The notes below the pieces were generated by a model. The model did no database searches and was not told the DNA's origin. It saw nothing but the letters and a program-made list of their open reading frames with translations. A stretch of 36,079 nucleotides of DNA, taken from IMG/VR virus record IMGVR_UViG_2690316109_000010. The stretch is one strand, 5' to 3'. The first letter of the stretch is position 1. Every line of letters begins with the position of its first letter. Of the stretch, positions 23,972-32,650 are shown in pieces. Both the position numbers and the translations under genes were made by a program. The DNA is from a virus. Lineage: Duplodnaviria; Heunggongvirae; Uroviricota; Caudoviricetes.

Positions 23972-24337
23972 TTTTCCTCACATATGTCATATAGTAAAGG
24001 ATTATATATACCGTTGTTTTGGACGCTCAAACAGCGAATCAGATCAAATAAAACGCACATTTGTTAACATTTACACAAAGTCTGCGTGGGATATTCTGAA
24101 AGAATATCCATAATGTGGAGAGAATCTATTGAAGTGCATGGTGCCGGGGGCCTCCCGGTGAATTCAGTACCAGCACCTGAATCCACGATTATCCCATATA
24201 CCTACTCGCTGATTGCCCCTCCGCACAGGGGGATTCACCATGCCAGTTTCTTTTAACAAACTCCCCGCAAACCAGAGAACAGTCAACCGCCTGAATTGTG
24301 AAGTATTTAAAAATTTCTCCCGCTAACTGATACCCGG

Positions 24338-26168: not shown

Positions 26169-26245
26169 TGGCGCGCTGTACTGGATTCGAACCAGTGACC
26201 GATTGCTTAGAAGGCAATTGCTCTGTCCGGCTGAGCTAACAACGC
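26169..26245 (-). tRNA. tRNA-Arg (anticodon UCU)
   Basis: The reverse complement folds as a cloverleaf: acceptor GCGTTGT/ACAGCGC, D arm GCTC...GAGC, anticodon stem ATTGC/GCAAT with loop CTTCTAA, T arm ACTGG-TTCGAAT-CCAGT, 3' CCA. Confidence 0.85.
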
Positions 26246-26349: not shown

Positions 26350-26425
26350 TGGTGGCCCTTGCTGGATTTGAACCAGCGACCTGGCGATTATGAGTCGCTC
26401 GCTCTCACCACTGAGCTAAAGGACC
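26350..26425 (-). tRNA. tRNA with CAU anticodon (ileX/ileZ-like tRNA-Ile2, or Met)
   Basis: The reverse complement GGTCCTTTAGCTCAGTGGTGAGAGC...CTCATAA...GCTGGTTCAAATCCAGCAAGGGCCACCA folds as a cloverleaf with anticodon loop CTCATAA; closely resembles E. coli ileX as I recall it. Confidence 0.8.
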
Positions 26426-29169: not shown

Positions 29170-29421
29170 TTATTCTTCTGCAAAAGCTGAAAAGCCTGCT
29201 TTTATTCCAATCTCTTTCAGTGCCTGTAATGAAGTGACAAACTCACCTTCGCGCAAGATAAATCCGTCTGTCACTCGACCATCCACAAAATTAATTAACG
29301 CAGCCCCATTCTTTCGCAAACACATGATGCGGTAATGACTAACAAGATTTCCATTTTCAACGCACACAGCATAGAGGCCATCTTCACAAAAAATTTTACG
29401 CAGTTCTTCGATGTTCATCAT
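29170..29421 (-). CDS. Rem-like small prophage protein
   Basis: 83 aa, MMNIEELRKIFCEDGLYAVCVENGNL...; same length and position (next to hok) as Qin Rem as I recall it. Confidence 0.45.
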   Translation of the reverse strand: MMNIEELRKIFCEDGLYAVCVENGNLVSHYRIMCLRKNGAALINFVDGRVTDGFILREGEFVTSLQALKEIGIKAGFSAFAEE

Positions 29422-29540
29422 CAGAATCCTTCCGGATAATTAGCTCTCCCCTTTAAGGGACCATCCCTCTTATCCCTGCGCGCTACTTAAGTATTTTTGA
29501 TTCTATTCCGGCACCGTCCAGAACTTCAAACGCGTTGAAA

Positions 29541-29569
29541 ATAAAAACAAAAACCCGCCGAAGCGGGTT
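29541..29569 (-). terminator. Terminator / 3' structure of the hok mRNA
   Basis: aacccgc-ttcg-gcgggtt hairpin on the minus strand followed by a U-rich tract. Confidence 0.6.
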
Positions 29570-29636
29570 AAGTGCGGGTGCGTTGAGGATGCTGCCACAT
29601 CAGAGGTGGCGAGGGATTTCTCCCTCGCCGGGTCTC

Positions 29637-29792
29637 TTACTCCTCAGGTTCGTAAGCTGTGAAGACAGCGACCTCCGTCTGGCCGGTTCGGATTCGTACC
29701 TCGCAGAGGTCTTTCCTCGTTACCAGTGCCGTCACTATGACGGTTAAACAGATGACGATCAGGGCGATTAACATCGCCTTTTGCTGCTTCAT
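29637..29792 (-). CDS. hok: Hok-family type I toxin (HokD/RelF-like)
   Basis: 51 aa, MKQQKAMLIALIVICLTVIVTALVTRKDLCEVRIRTGQTEVAVFTAYEPEE, a Hok-family membrane toxin; ATG at 29792 after AGGAG; the frame is open upstream to 29849 (mok-like leader). Confidence 0.85.
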   Translation of the reverse strand: MKQQKAMLIALIVICLTVIVTALVTRKDLCEVRIRTGQTEVAVFTAYEPEE

Positions 29793-30354
29793 AGCCTGCT
29801 TCTCCTTGCCTTTCGGCACGTAAGAGGCTAACCTACATGTGTCTAGCATGAAATTGGCCTCAGGTTAATGTTAAGCGTCTTGCCGGACGCGTAATGTTAA
29901 CTGGGGCTTTTCTCTATCTGCCTTTGGTGTTCATGCCTGAGGCAGATAGCCTCAAGCACCCGCAGCAATTCTACTTAACTCACGTCACCTCGCCAATATA
30001 AAATCAATCAGAAAGGCGATCCGTAAGAACAACAGCAAGGCAATAAATTGCCATTACAGCCGCAATAGCTAGCGCACATTTGAGAACCAGCACGACAACC
30101 TCCTGTATTGGACGTACACCAGTCCTGATGAATATGAGGCTGTCTCGTCAGTGATTCAATACAACTATTGGGTATAGTTTCTCTGATTTTTTCTGTGGAA
30201 ATGGGGCTCAACCACTAGTCACCACCAGCACTTCTTTTAATACGCAAAGTCCGACACAAGCTAACCTTCTAGTCCGCTTTGAGCGAGGAGCGGAAGTTTA
30301 TAGACATTTCTTGCACTGCATTGTCTAATCAATTAGGAGCTGGTAACGTGCCCT

Positions 30355-30420: not shown

Positions 30421-32214
30421 CTATCTGAAACGCTCAAACAGTGCAACCATTCCTTCAGGAGCGATATCTCTGACCTGGGCTCCTTGCCGCTCAACCCACT
30501 TACCAGCTATATGTGAAGGGGTATCCTGACCTAAAATTTCGAAGACGAAAACCGTCTTATCGAAGTATCGAACGCATTTAAGATGAGTGTTTATGTAGGA
30601 CTTAAGCGGTTCTGAAAGTCCTGAGCGTCCTACCCGATCAGAGATGTCTTGGAACATCTGGTCAAGGTTCTTTCCAGCGTGGTTCGCTTCGTGATCAACA
30701 CCAGTTATATGGAAGCCGTTATAAGATAAAGCCTTGCTTCCGAAAATCTCCTGAACTCTTGTTGCAGTATGCGCATTTTCAGCAACCCCTACAAGAACAT
30801 AGCCCTTGTGTCCTCTGCCGATATTAGCAATAGCAGCGCAGGTCTCCATAATTTTTTCGAAGGAGCGTTCATCAAAGGAAGGTGATGGGTCTAAAGTATA
30901 GAAACCTTGTTTAAAATCGTAGGCCGCCTGCTCAGTTATTGAGTTAGTGAGTAAATTTTGGAGCTTCGTGATCCAATGAACTTTTGCAGGATCTGGATTT
31001 TGATCGTTTTCAAAAAAGCCCTGAATCCAACCAATTATTGAATCGACCATTCTACTCCGGTTGTCAGCCCCCCATCTCCCTCCATCTTGAACCTGAATAT
31101 TCCTACCGCAATCTTTCAGCCGCCCAATGAGGCCCGCACTATCTGAAACCACCATACCCCTTTTAATTATCAGGTCATGCATGGCGAGAAAGACCACCTG
31201 AAAGTAACGGGGGACTGGATTACCACCATTTCCGTTAGGAAAAATCAAACCAGAGAATGTCGTTTGAGCCTGACTAAGAAGTAGGATTATCGCATCATGT
31301 ACTCTTTGATAATCAAGATCGACTAGCTCCCCGGTTCTCTTTTTAATAGCTTGATCAATCGCTTCGAATCTTGCTTTGCTGGCTAAAGCTTCCGGGGATA
31401 TTGCTCCATAGTAGTCATCTAGAAGCTCTGTACGCGAGGCCAGAGGTTTGTCAGAAACCATATAAGCAAGAATGTCCGCCACTATCTCTTCATCCCGGCT
31501 CTGTCTTAACTGCTCCTTCGTCAATATTCCGTTAACAATCCAGAAGACGCTATCGGCACTAATGCCGTAGTCTAAATCCTTGTTCGTGATGCTAATTTTT
31601 TTCATCTCGCTTAAGAGCAAGAGATCCGCGTTAGATGTGTCACCACGAACTCTTGCGGAGATCTTCCGAACACATTCCGCAAACACATTTGTAGCACCTG
31701 CTGCACGCAACTCCTGTCGTGAGAGCTGACGTCCACCTGAGTTAATTCGCCTGAACACTTCCTCAACTGAGTCTCTCTCGGCTGCTTCATAAATTGAAAG
31801 CGGGACAGGATATGATGCTATTGCAAGACACTGGCTTCGATCAAGGAGTGGCATCTTCTGATCAATGACTCCGCGATCTAATAGGTCTTTCGTCGTCGCG
31901 AACGTATTTAAATCAAAGTAGAATCCATTAAATGAAAAATCGTTCGAGATAAAAGACATGATGGCATTCATACGCTGCATCCCATCAATAATCTCGAGAG
32001 TGCCGTCTTTTCTCCCAAGAGGTTCTGCTAACAAAATGATAGGTATCGGGAATCCCTTGATTATCGAGTCAATAAAATTTTGTTTTTCCTCAATAGTCCA
32101 AATCAATTTACGTTGATACTGTCGATTCACAACGTATTTTTTATCCTGATAGTTGATAAACACTCGCTCAACTTGTTCGCCACGAACTATTAGTTCTTGT
32201 TGTAACGTTGCCAT
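30421..32214 (-). CDS. DUF262 (ParB-like nuclease/NTPase domain) protein, putative anti-phage defense or Type IV restriction-like enzyme
   Basis: About 597 aa from the ATG at 32214 (AGGACGG Shine-Dalgarno); N-terminal YVVNRQYQRKLIWTIEEKQNFIDSIIKGFPIPIILLA...IIDGMQRMNAI is the DUF262 signature (DGxQR); C-terminal half unassigned (possible DHEANH His-rich motif). AT-rich gene with its own AT-rich upstream region and terminator. Confidence 0.7.
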   Translation of the reverse strand: MATLQQELIVRGEQVERVFINYQDKKYVVNRQYQRKLIWTIEEKQNFIDSIIKGFPIPIILLAEPLGRKDGTLEIIDGMQRMNAIMSFISNDFSFNGFYFDLNTFATTKDLLDRGVIDQKMPLLDRSQCLAIASYPVPLSIYEAAERDSVEEVFRRINSGGRQLSRQELRAAGATNVFAECVRKISARVRGDTSNADLLLLSEMKKISITNKDLDYGISADSVFWIVNGILTKEQLRQSRDEEIVADILAYMVSDKPLASRTELLDDYYGAISPEALASKARFEAIDQAIKKRTGELVDLDYQRVHDAIILLLSQAQTTFSGLIFPNGNGGNPVPRYFQVVFLAMHDLIIKRGMVVSDSAGLIGRLKDCGRNIQVQDGGRWGADNRSRMVDSIIGWIQGFFENDQNPDPAKVHWITKLQNLLTNSITEQAAYDFKQGFYTLDPSPSFDERSFEKIMETCAAIANIGRGHKGYVLVGVAENAHTATRVQEIFGSKALSYNGFHITGVDHEANHAGKNLDQMFQDISDRVGRSGLSEPLKSYINTHLKCVRYFDKTVFVFEILGQDTPSHIAGKWVERQGAQVRDIAPEGMVALFERFR

Positions 32215-32650
32215 TATGTTGCCGTCCTGAGCCATTTATAGAGATATAACGATTAGGCAAAACCTGCCCTACATCACACGTACGTATCATAATAATTGAA
32301 AAGTCATAAAAATAAATATTCTTCTACAGCATCGCCCGGCATACTTCAAATGCACAAAAATAAAACACTATAAATCAATATCTTATGGAATTATTTTTGT
32401 AAAGGTGAATTGAACTTGTTACTCACTAAATTCTCCTGAATTTATGTTTTTTTTGCTAATGGACAATAATGTTGAACTGTAGATATTTGTTTTAATTGGA
32501 ATTAATTTTCGGAAAATGCTCGTATCTATGACAGCTTTTGGCACAAAGCGGACAACCACGCCAGATCTACCCTGTGCCATGAAAAATGAGAATGTCAATT
32601 CACTCTTGAACTAATGCTTTTTAATCTAGTAACGTCTAAAATACCTAACA

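What the first reader, a model, noticed from the sequence alone, without database searches (positions are those of the whole stretch)
29541..29950. Hok-family type I toxin locus inside the prophage early region
A 51-aa Hok/RelF-type membrane toxin ORF with a strong Shine-Dalgarno, an in-frame upstream leader open to 29849 and a downstream GC-rich hairpin-terminator (29552-29569) is present. A 10-bp inverted repeat lies upstream (29914-29949) where a Sok antisense promoter or a fold-back element would be expected. Whether an intact Sok antitoxin RNA exists cannot be decided from sequence alone.
Basis: partly seen in the sequence, partly recalled or inferred. Interest (0 to 1): 0.5.

Follow-up and report, generated by a model that had tools for sequence, protein, structure and literature searches.

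The report
Intact prophage hok/sok toxin-antitoxin locus
This is a complete, ordinary copy of the well-known hok/sok killer-gene module, a small membrane toxin held in check by an antisense RNA, carried by a lambda-like prophage of E. coli; nearly identical copies occur in hundreds of sequenced E. coli genomes.

Summary
On the minus strand there is a 51-aa Hok ORF (29792-29637). It is 100% identical to E. coli K-12 HokD/RelF and matches Pfam HOK_GEF at E=3e-23. It has an AAGGAG Shine-Dalgarno, an in-frame 70-codon mok leader from ATG 29849, and an intrinsic terminator at 29569-29552. The 10-bp inverted repeat (29914-29949) is real. It is not a Sok promoter but the conserved 5' stem-loop of the hok mRNA.

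All regulatory parts of the R1 paradigm are present:
- hok promoter (29996-29968)
- tac/fbi 5'-3' pairing (29961-29950 with 29588-29576)
- ucb, dcb and the metastable hairpin
- a plus-strand Sok gene: TTGCCT-17-TAACCT at 29806-29834, +1 at about 29841, about 77 nt, with a 5' tail, a long hairpin and a U-tract

The Sok -35, spacer and first five -10 bases equal a published probe for hokW-sokW, a proven toxin-antitoxin pair. The Sok hairpin is more stable on the antisense strand in 51 of 52 related loci.

K-12's hokD is a truncated version of this locus. Expression and toxicity in this host remain untested.

Verdict: already known, low interest. Side note: a conserved, rarely annotated 29-aa membrane ORF lies just upstream.

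The parts
29968..29996 (-). hok/mok promoter: TTGGCG, 17-nt spacer, TAGAAT. The 7th base after the -10 is G29961, which is position 1 of the Rfam model.
   Evidence: 9 of 12 consensus matches; the model starts at 29961. The -10 is conserved in related loci.
29545..29961 (-). Full-length hok mRNA, about 417 nt (inferred from promoter and terminator).
   Evidence: MFE -174.4 kcal/mol, z=-7.45. Collinear with an R1-type plasmid hok/sok locus.
29950..29961 (-). tac element (GGGUGCUUGAGG), the 5' end of the mRNA.
   Evidence: It pairs with fbi in the full-length fold. Duplex energy is -21.5 kcal/mol, with compensatory changes in related loci. It pairs with ucb once the 3' end is removed.
29934..29943 (-). 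Partner of tac in the metastable hairpin of the nascent transcript (GCCUCAGGCA pairs with UGCUUGAGGC at 29958-29949).
   Evidence: I3, 10 nt, 90% complementary, 5-nt loop. The role is taken from the R1 description quoted.
29914..29949 (-). 5' stem-loop of the hok mRNA.
   Evidence: Rfam structure. One pair shows AU:20, UA:6, GC:2 across 30 loci.
29903..29909 (-). ucb / anti-SD (AAGCCCC). It pairs around the mok SD in the full-length fold and with tac in the truncated fold.
   Evidence: the tac/ucb pairs are invariant in 30 loci.
29637..29849 (-). mok leader ORF (70 codons). It is in-frame with hok and shares its stop. Its SD, GAGG, is at 29861-29858.
   Evidence: Same arrangement as the annotated K-12 mokC/hokC. 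93% identical to MokW of an Stx2 phage.
29824..29828 (-). dcb (GCCUC). It pairs with the mok SD (GAGGC) in the 3'-truncated fold.
   Evidence: Rfam consensus structure; R1 model as described.
29637..29792 (-). hok toxin ORF (51 aa plus stop). Its SD, AAGGAG, is at 29807-29802.
   Evidence: Pfam HOK_GEF E=3e-23. 100% identical to K-12 HokD. 42% identical to R1 Hok.
29608..29629 (-). 3'-UTR stem-loop (GGCGAGGGA-GAAA-UCCCUCGCC). It probably forms the protective 3' end of the processed mRNA.
   Evidence: I2, 9 bp, 100% complementary. The role is inferred from R1.
29576..29588 (-). fbi element (CCUCAACGCACCC), complementary to tac.
29545..29569 (-). Intrinsic terminator of the hok mRNA (stem 29569-29552, then the U-tract).
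29806..29834 (+). Sok promoter: -35 TTGCCT (29806-29811, overlapping the hok SD on the other strand), 17-nt spacer, -10 TAACCT (29829-29834).
   Evidence: 29804-29833 is identical to oligo YO-597 of the hokW-sokW paper. The alignment with an Stx2 phage shows no difference through the last -10 base and the start site. The authors' promoter-less sokW mutant was made with primers flanking this hexamer. Same architecture as R1-type TTGCGC-17-TATCCT. TTGnnn with a 17/18-nt spacer is present in 53 of 56 distinct loci, and TAnnnT in 44 of those 53.
29841..29917 (+). Predicted Sok antisense RNA, about 77 nt. Its 5' tail is complementary to the mok start region. It has a long hairpin ending in GGGGC, followed by UUUUCUCUAU. 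The ends were placed by homology with the annotated K-12 sokC.
   Evidence: positional homology to sokC. (fold -30.4 kcal/mol, z=-4.9). (hairpin -26.5 kcal/mol on the antisense strand against -16.8 on the sense strand).

Best explanation
The locus is an intact hok/mok/sok type I toxin-antitoxin module of the hokD/hokW lineage. It is carried as cargo in the delayed-early (nin-like) region of a Qin-like lambdoid prophage of E. coli.

Shown by sequence and computation:
- A sigma-70 promoter (29996-29968) would give a roughly 417-nt mRNA starting at G29961.
- In the full-length form, the 5' tac element pairs with the 3' fbi element, and the mok Shine-Dalgarno is base-paired with ucb. This is the closed form.
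- When the last 45 nt or so are removed, the predicted fold switches to tac/ucb plus mok-SD/dcb. This is the conformation that is translatable and binds Sok in plasmid R1.
- hok (51 aa, identical to HokD) lies inside mok.
- On the opposite strand, a promoter (TTGCCT-17-TAACCT) sits between the hok and mok start codons. It would give a roughly 77-nt Sok RNA whose single-stranded 5' tail is complementary to the mok translation-initiation region.

Inferred from the R1 and hokW-sokW paradigms:
- Unstable Sok is made constitutively. It pairs with processed hok mRNA, blocks mok translation and hence the coupled hok translation, and the duplex is cut by RNase III.
- When Sok supply stops, the stable mRNA pool is translated and Hok depolarises the inner membrane. 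Sok supply could stop on loss of the element, on transcription shut-off by an infecting phage, or on prophage induction.
- hok is co-oriented with rightward early transcription. Read-through during induction would therefore collide with, and titrate, the convergent Sok transcript. This would explain the RecA-dependent drop of sokW and rise of HokW reported for Sp5. The most likely role here is the same: helping lysis and release on induction, and/or element addiction. This last step is the weakest.
For: Toxin: Pfam HOK_GEF E=3e-23. The protein is 51/51 identical to K-12 HokD. HokD served as a toxic control in the Hok survey preprint. Mok/Hok is 93% identical to MokW/HokW.

Leader: Rfam RF01794 scores 118.7 bits against a gathering score of 59.

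Promoter and terminator.

tac/fbi: present in the MFE of the full-length RNA. Duplex energy is -21.5 kcal/mol. The partners covary across Escherichia, Photorhabdus, Pantoea and Rosenbergiella loci: GGGUGC/GCACCC against GGGCGC/GCGCCC, GAGGC/CCUC against GAGAC/UCUC, UUAAGG/CCUUAA.

Conformational switch: predicted after 3' truncation (compared). It matches the R1 model quoted. The metastable hairpin is present (I3).

Sok:
- Positional homology with the annotated K-12 sokC.
- The promoter equals the sokW promoter: YO-597 matches 29804-29833 exactly, and the alignment shows no difference through the start site. hokW-sokW was shown to be a TA pair, with the antitoxin effect lost on mutating the sokW promoter.
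- Same -35/17/-10 layout as the R1 type.
- Hexamers are conserved in 53 distinct loci.
- The fold is a 5' tail, a hairpin and a U-tract, z=-4.9.
- The hairpin is more stable on the antisense strand in 51 of 52 loci, with 152 G-U pairs against 10 on the sense strand.

Context: repressor, CII-like, O-like, Ren-like and GmrSD-like genes, then hok, rem, DUF968/HNH, RusA, Q, tRNAs, lysis genes and terminase.

Distribution: 4720 of 5426 complete E. coli genomes have a match, 672 records at 99% identity or more, annotated hokD. 78 phage records also match.
Against: No expression data exist for this locus. The Sok RNA, the 3' processing of hok mRNA and toxicity in this host are all inferred.

The Sok promoter matches only 7 of 12 consensus positions and was not picked up by the generic promoter scan. 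The proven R1 promoter scores the same.

[quoted passage not shown] An intact sequence therefore does not guarantee activity.

The Sok 5' recognition region differs from sokW at about 8 of 32 positions. Properties of sokW cannot be transferred automatically, although sense and antisense change together by construction.

NCBIfam Hok HMMs hit below their curated cut-offs.

Conservation of the promoter hexamers is confounded: the same bases form the hok SD and dcb on the sense strand.

The loci compared are phylogenetically related, so the counts are not independent events.
Confidence: 0.9

Rival explanations
1. The locus is a decayed or silenced hok remnant, like the K-12 hok loci. The toxin ORF is kept, but the module no longer works as a toxin-antitoxin pair. 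Examples would be a dead Sok promoter, an mRNA locked in the closed form, or transcription only as a passenger of the phage early operon.
For: K-12's own hokD, identical from the hok SD onward, has lost the whole leader to relBE. hokC is flanked by IS186. Earlier tests of chromosomal hok/sok loci found no post-segregational killing. The Sok promoter is a weak consensus match (7 of 12) and was missed by the scan.
Against: Every element known from R1 is present and collinear. There is no IS element, frameshift or deletion. The Sok promoter matches that of a functional relative. The locus is kept at 95-100% identity in thousands of genomes and in inducible phages.
Confidence: 0.07
2. The module is functional, but its main role is abortive-infection defence against other phages. 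Host transcription shut-off would deplete Sok and release Hok. It would sit with the neighbouring GmrSD-like gene in a prophage defence islet, rather than aiding lysis or maintenance of its own prophage.
For: The adjacent 604-aa gene has a GmrSD_N/DUF262 domain and matches the PADLOC models NsnA and PD-T4-2_A. [quoted passage not shown]
Against: The Hok survey found no enrichment of hok next to defence systems. The GmrSD-like neighbour is variable cargo: only 16 of 1706 genomes that carry the block upstream of hok also carry it. The one experimental study of a close prophage relative found an induction and release phenotype. The two roles are not mutually exclusive.
Confidence: 0.25
3. The inverted repeat at 29914-29949 is a protein-binding operator or the Sok promoter region.
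For: It is a perfect 10-bp palindrome-like repeat upstream of the ORF.
Against: It lies inside the transcribed leader, 12-47 nt after the predicted start. It is a paired helix in the Rfam model and in all folds. It keeps pairing through compensatory changes. By homology with the annotated sokC, Sok ends here rather than starting here.
Confidence: 0.02

Closest known systems
hokW-sokW of Sakai prophage 5 / Stx2 phages (Takada et al. 2021, PMC8621323)
   Same: Both are prophage-borne. Mok/Hok is 93% identical. The leader is about 94% identical. No differences were seen across the Sok promoter and start site in the comparisons made. Both have the same 18-nt extension of the Sok hairpin. hokW-sokW has been shown experimentally to be a type I TA that depends on RNase III and Hfq and that aids phage release after mitomycin C.
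   Different: About 8 of 32 positions differ in the Sok 5' tail and mok start region, and the sokW probe YO-592 does not match within 3 mismatches. Four residues differ at the C-terminus of Hok. The 3' end beyond fbi and the terminator differ. The flanking genes differ: an EaA-like gene there, against a GmrSD-like gene plus a small-ORF block here.
hokD (relF) of the Qin cryptic prophage, E. coli K-12
   Same: The DNA is nearly identical (two small differences in the 3' UTR) from the hok SD through hok, the 3' UTR, fbi, the terminator and on into rem. The 51-aa protein is identical. The downstream prophage neighbourhood is the same: rem, then ydfU/DUF968.
   Different: In K-12 everything upstream of the hok SD is replaced by relB-relE. 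That means tac, the 5' hairpin, ucb, the Sok gene, the mok start and dcb are all missing. K-12 hokD is therefore a truncated derivative, and the window carries the complete form.
hok/sok (parB) of plasmid R1 and IncF plasmids
   Same: The same parts occur in the same order: promoter, tac, 5' hairpin, ucb, Sok hairpin, mok SD and ATG, dcb with the Sok -10, hok SD with the Sok -35, hok, 3' hairpin, fbi and terminator. The predicted closed and open conformations are the same.
   Different: Hok is only 42% identical. The 5' hairpin is shorter. The Sok hairpin is 18 nt longer, giving a Sok of about 77 nt against 59 nt for the annotated K-12 sokC. The module is on a prophage, not a plasmid.
hokC/mokC/sokC (gef) of E. 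coli K-12
   Same: mok is in-frame and shares its stop with hok. An antisense sokC is annotated at the homologous position, which was used here to place the Sok ends. The Rfam score is equal, 118.3 bits.
   Different: The sokC -10 is CACTCT after a 1-nt deletion. The 3' end is interrupted by IS186. The Sok hairpin is short.

Membership tests
[quoted passage not shown] | A Hok/Gef-family toxin ORF of about 50 aa with an N-terminal transmembrane helix. | tested here: met
   Pfam PF01848 E=3e-23, 81.6 bits against a cut-off of 22. 100% identical to HokD. 42% identical to R1 Hok.
[quoted passage not shown] | A conserved, structured hok mRNA leader (Rfam RF01794). | tested here: met
   118.7 bits against a gathering score of 59, covering the full model 1-157. 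The model matches the sense strand, as it does at K-12 hokC where sokC is annotated on the other strand.
[quoted passage not shown] | A mok reading frame with its own SD that starts upstream of hok and overlaps it. | tested here: met
   70-codon ORF from ATG 29849, with GAGG 8 nt upstream. Same in-frame arrangement as the annotated mokC. Translational coupling itself was not tested.
[quoted passage not shown] | Long-range tac/fbi pairing between the 5' and 3' ends of the full-length mRNA. | tested here: met
   Present in the MFE structure. Duplex energy is -21.5 kcal/mol, and the partners covary in related loci.
[quoted passage not shown] | A switch to tac/ucb and mok-SD/dcb pairing after 3' truncation, plus a metastable 5' hairpin. 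| tested here: met
   Predicted folds, the inverted repeat I3 and invariant tac/ucb pairs in 30 loci all agree with the R1 model. This is a prediction only.
[quoted passage not shown] | An antisense Sok gene with its own promoter between the hok and mok starts, a single-stranded 5' tail and a terminator hairpin. | tested here: met
   TTGCCT-17-TAACCT at 29806-29834 matches the sokW promoter. Fold. Conservation. Strand asymmetry of the hairpin in 51 of 52 loci.
[quoted passage not shown] | Sok RNA is expressed and unstable, hok mRNA is stable and 3'-processed, Hok kills when Sok is absent, and the duplex is cut by RNase III. | not testable with these tools
   This needs northern blots or RNA-seq and genetics. 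It has been shown for the relatives R1 and hokW-sokW. HokD protein toxicity is reported in the preprint.
[quoted passage not shown] | NCBIfam Hok-family HMMs (NF007279 subfamily, NF007290 HokA) at their curated cut-offs. | tested here: not met
   48.5 bits against 73, and 40.2 bits against 89. These models describe other Hok subfamilies. RefSeq nevertheless names the identical protein WP_000813254.1 as HokD. This does not define membership of the family.
relBE-hokD (relBEF) operon arrangement of K-12 Qin | hokD lies directly downstream of relB-relE, without its own leader or Sok. | tested here: not met
   Homology with K-12 stops at the hok SD. The window has the full hok/sok leader in place of relE.

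The most novel reading that the evidence does not exclude
The roughly 300-bp block directly upstream of the hok promoter (about 29997-30296) may be an unrecognised small gene of its own. It would encode a 29-aa single-helix membrane peptide (30093-30004, GTG start, AGGAGG SD) behind a roughly 200-nt leader that is even better conserved than the ORF. This could be a second, undescribed small-toxin or type-I-like module, or a modulator that usually travels with this hok lineage.

It is found in 1706 of 5426 E. coli genomes with no feature annotated in any of the 29 rows shown that cover only this block. It sits at a fixed 211-nt distance from the hok start in 99 viral contigs (109 of 121 within 1 nt). 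It also occurs without hok, and there it keeps the frame through a 3-nt deletion.
Probability: 0.2. Interest if true: 0.4.

Novelty: already known. Interest (0 to 1): 0.1.

Why it matters
It matters little as a discovery. hok/sok is the founding type I toxin-antitoxin system, its prophage relatives (hokD, hokW-sokW) are published, and near-identical DNA occurs in hundreds of E. coli genomes.

The work has three practical uses:
- Annotation. RefSeq records label only the hokD CDS, not mok, Sok or the mRNA elements. The coordinates given here supply them.
- A caution about Rfam. The 'sok' model RF01794 hits the sense leader, so its strand must not be read as the strand of the antitoxin RNA.
- History of K-12 hokD. 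The window shows the complete ancestral form of K-12's truncated hokD.

Tried and rejected
(1) Reading the Rfam 'sok' hit as the antisense RNA. Rejected: the hit is on the hok strand and ends at the hok ATG. At K-12 hokC the same model hits the strand opposite to the annotated sokC.

(2) The inverted repeat as Sok promoter or operator. Rejected.

(3) The generic promoter scan did not report the Sok promoter, which matches 7 of 12 positions. It was located instead by homology with sokC, R1 and sokW.

(4) A K-12-like relBEF arrangement. Not present.

(5) RNAalifold on 30 leaders recovered tac/ucb and the 5' hairpin but not the Sok hairpin, because of an 18-nt indel in the alignment. That hairpin was analysed per sequence instead.

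(6) A sub-threshold Rfam isrK match to the hok 3' UTR at 29548-29628 (25.8 bits against 50). It rests on a generic hairpin plus terminator and was not pursued.

(7) A plus-strand promoter-like site at 29975-30004 that could drive an RNA antisense to the upstream small ORF. Its -10 is not conserved in homologues (TAAAAT becomes TGAAAT, by my reading of the alignment). The idea was left as untested and unlikely.

(9) PADLOC and NCBIfam give no above-threshold family for Hok, Mok or Rem.
Full report
**Observation**

Reading 29300-30200 on the minus strand and listing ORFs confirms a 51-aa ORF at 29792-29637: MKQQKAMLIALIVICLTVIVTALVTRKDLCEVRIRTGQTEVAVFTAYEPEE. AAGGAG lies 9 nt upstream. An in-frame upstream ATG at 29849 gives a 70-aa ORF with its own GAGG. 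A hairpin terminator sits at 29569-29552. The 10-bp inverted repeat lies at 29949-29940 / 29923-29914, inside a longer imperfect repeat.

The ORF matches Pfam HOK_GEF at E=3e-23. It is 51/51 identical to K-12 HokD and 42% identical to plasmid R1-type Hok. Rfam RF01794 ('sok antitoxin, CssrC') matches 29961-29787 on the minus strand with 118.7 bits, against a gathering score of 59.

**What the Rfam hit means**

The model ends at the hok ATG and lies on the hok strand. I ran the same model on K-12 hokC. It hits the hokC strand at 502-654 of locus L002, whereas RefSeq annotates sokC on the opposite strand at 553-611. RF01794 therefore models the sense leader of hok mRNA. It proves a hok-type leader, not a Sok transcript.

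**Anatomy of the hok mRNA**

A promoter TTGGCG-17-TAGAAT (29996-29968) places +1 at G29961, which is position 1 of the Rfam model. The 415-nt RNA from 29961 to 29547 folds at -174.4 kcal/mol, with z=-7.45. In that fold:
- The 5' GGGUGCUUGAGG (tac, 29961-29950) pairs with CCUCAACGCACCC (fbi, 29588-29576).
- The mok SD region is paired with the AAGCCCC box (ucb).

[quoted passage not shown] This is the Rfam consensus structure. It is also the 'closed full-length / open truncated' model described for R1 (PMC9841398).

The metastable hairpin of the nascent RNA, in which tac pairs with the sequence just downstream, is present as well (I3). So is a perfect 9-bp hairpin right after the stop codon (I2).

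I fetched 63 related loci from Escherichia, Shigella, Photorhabdus, Kluyvera, Citrobacter, Pantoea, Erwinia and other genomes, which gave 56 distinct leaders including the window. The tac/fbi partners covary across them:
- GGGUGC/GCACCC against GGGCGC/GCGCCC
- GAGGC/CCUC against GAGAC/UCUC
- UUAAGG/CCUUAA

The tac/ucb pairs are invariant, and the 5' hairpin keeps pairing through AU/UA/GC changes.

**Sok**

Alignment with K-12 hokC/sokC and the sokC annotation place the homologous antisense RNA at plus-strand 29841-29917. Directly upstream on the plus strand are TTGCCT (29806-29811), a 17-nt spacer and TAACCT (29829-29834). The start G follows 6 nt later, as in sokC.

An IncFII R1-type locus has the same layout, TTGCGC-17-TATCCT. 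That also scores 7 of 12 against consensus, which is why the generic scan missed the window's promoter.

The hokW-sokW paper (PMC8621323) showed that hokW-sokW of Sakai prophage 5 is a type I TA pair, and that the antitoxin effect is lost when the sokW promoter is mutated. Its 30-nt oligo YO-597 (CCTTGCCTTTCGGCACGTAAGAGGCTAACC) matches window 29804-29833 exactly. The mutagenic primers YO-421 and YO-422 flank the TAACCT hexamer. The alignment with an Stx2 phage shows no difference through the last -10 base and the start site.

The predicted 77-nt Sok folds into a 5' tail, a long hairpin ending in GGGGC, and UUUUCUCUAU (-30.4 kcal/mol, z=-4.9). It is 18 nt longer than SokC. The extra bases extend the hairpin (GCGUC...GACGC), and this extension shows a compensatory variant (ACGUC...GACGU) in another locus.

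The promoter anchor was found in 53 of the 56 distinct loci. In those 53:
- The -35 is TTGCCT, TTGACC or TTGCTT.
- The spacer is 17 or 18 nt.
- The -10 is TAnnnT in 44.

These bases are also the hok SD and dcb on the other strand, so I looked for a strand-specific signal. The hairpin is more stable on the Sok strand in 51 of 52 loci. The mean is -19.0 against -11.5 kcal/mol, and the window gives -26.5 against -16.8. There are 152 G-U pairs on the antisense strand against 10 on the sense strand. G-U pairs become C-A mismatches on the complement, so this asymmetry argues that the antisense RNA structure itself is under selection. The loci are related, so the counts are not independent, but several different stem sequences show it.

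Conclusion: by every sequence criterion Sok is intact. Only expression is untested.

**Relatives and distribution**

The 501-bp locus matches 4720 of 5426 complete E. coli genomes. Of the matching records, 672 are at 99% identity or more, and the rows shown are annotated hokD only. It also matches 78 phage records, including mEp460_ev081, HannyBb, Tritos, Evi and Stx-converting phages, variously labelled MokW, HokD, gef or host killer.

K-12 Qin hokD is nearly identical from the hok SD through the terminator and into rem, but relBE replaces everything upstream. The window therefore holds the complete form of what K-12 keeps as a stump. From memory, Pedersen and Gerdes (1999) ascribed the inactivation of K-12 hokD to a major rearrangement.

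Against hokW, Mok/Hok is 93% identical. The Sok 5' tail and mok start region differ at about 8 of 32 positions, and the sokW probe does not match. In the 56-locus alignment this is the most variable stretch. That fits a role as the specificity determinant that keeps co-resident hok/sok loci from cross-talking. This last point is inference.

**Context**

PHROG and Pfam hits, together with the annotation of a 99.8%-identical E. coli region, give the following order on the minus strand:
1. Repressor (this gene is on the plus strand) and cro
2. CII-like/YdaT gene
3. O-like replication gene
4. Ren-like/DUF977 gene
5. A 604-aa GmrSD_N/DUF262 protein (PADLOC NsnA-like)
6. hok/sok
7. rem
8. DUF968/HNH gene
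9. RusA
10. Q antiterminator
11. Two tRNAs
12. STnc100
13. Lysis genes
14. Terminase

'Prophage early region' is therefore right. It is the nin-like cargo slot of the rightward delayed-early operon, and hok is co-oriented with it.

**Mechanism and role**

The mechanism is the R1 paradigm, whose parts are all shown above. The steps themselves are inferred:
1. Constitutive, unstable Sok blocks mok translation and hence hok translation.
2. The stable mRNA is slowly 3'-processed into the form that is translatable and binds Sok.
3. Loss of Sok releases Hok, which depolarises the membrane.

For the biological role, the nearest experimental evidence is hokW-sokW. After mitomycin C, sokW falls and HokW rises in a RecA-dependent way, and phage release halves without the locus. 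hok here is transcribed in the same direction as early rightward transcription. I therefore propose that read-through on induction interferes with, and titrates, the convergent Sok transcript. This is inference. Addiction to the element and abortive infection remain possible. Earlier chromosomal loci failed post-segregational killing tests.

**Comparison and novelty**

The locus meets every testable defining feature of the hok/sok family. The only 'not met' item is the curated cut-off of two NCBIfam HMMs built for other Hok subfamilies. It is a known system in a known place. A recent survey reports hok enrichment in prophages. Novelty: already known. Interest: low.

**Noticed in passing**

The 300 bp just upstream of the hok promoter form a conserved block. 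It is present in 1706 E. coli genomes at 82-97% identity for nearly all, and no feature is annotated in any of the 29 listed rows that cover only this block. It contains a 29-aa ORF with an AGGAGG SD and a GTG start (30093-30004): MLVLKCALAIAAVMAIYCLAVVLTDRLSD.
- The frame is open in 120 of 121 sequences examined (the window plus 120 viral contigs). In one contig the stop codon is lost.
- There are 13 conservative peptide variants.
- Variable columns by codon position are 5, 4 and 10.
- The hok start lies 210-212 nt after the ORF end in 109 of the 121.
- In E. coli strain 41 the block occurs without hok and keeps the frame through a 3-nt deletion. It is therefore a separate unit and probably coding.
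- GenBank sporadically calls it 'membrane protein' or 'hypothetical'.
- The function is unknown.

Noticed in passing
window 29997-30296 (-), ORF 30093-30004: A conserved block of about 300 bp lies directly upstream of the hok promoter. It holds a 29-aa single-helix membrane ORF (GTG start, AGGAGG SD) whose stop is 7 nt before the hok -35. The block is in 1706 of 5426 E. coli genomes, with no feature annotated in the 29 listed rows that cover only this block. It is also in 4 phage records. The frame is open in 120 of 121 sequences, with third-position-biased variation, and sits at a fixed distance from hok. It is also found without hok, with an in-frame 3-nt deletion. It is only sporadically named 'membrane protein'. 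The roughly 200 nt upstream of the ORF are at least as conserved as the ORF. It may be an unrecognised small-protein or toxin-like gene.
   Followed up: partly
window 29651-29654 (-), hok codon Tyr47 (TAC 29654-29652): The Tyr47 codon lies in a UACG context (GCUUACGAA). A recent preprint states that hokC, hokD and hokE mRNAs undergo TadA A-to-I editing that recodes this Tyr to Cys, as known for hokB (10.1101/2025.08.07.668861). The motif is intact here and in hokW.
   Followed up: no
window 30421-32235 (-): A 604-aa protein has an N-terminal GmrSD_N/DUF262 domain (Pfam E=2e-22). It matches the PADLOC models NsnA (9e-28) and PD-T4-2_A. The C-terminal 400 aa have no family match. It is a candidate anti-phage nuclease carried as variable cargo next to hok. 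It is split into two CDSs in the closest annotated genome, and few genomes have it (16 of the 1706 that carry the adjacent block).
   Followed up: partly
window 24082-24272 (-): Rfam STnc100 sRNA match: 110 bits against a gathering score of 47, covering the full model. It lies between the tRNA genes and the lysis genes of the prophage.
   Followed up: no
window 26172-26245 and 26353-26425 (-): Two tRNA genes lie just downstream of the Q antiterminator gene. They are annotated tRNA-Ile and tRNA-Arg in a near-identical E. coli prophage. This is the usual lambdoid arrangement.
   Followed up: no
window 29548-29628 (-): The hok 3' UTR (hairpin, fbi, terminator) gives a sub-threshold full-length match to Rfam isrK, the Gifsy-1 prophage sRNA: 25.8 bits against 50, E=5.5e-4 in a 201-nt search. 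This is probably a generic hairpin-plus-terminator resemblance.
   Followed up: partly
window 29842-29857 (both strands); loci L006-L068: The stretch around the mok start codon, which is the Sok 5' recognition tail, is the most variable part of the leader across the 56 distinct loci. The flanks are nearly invariant. Several genomes carry multiple loci with different tails. This is consistent with insulation between co-resident hok/sok pairs.
   Followed up: no
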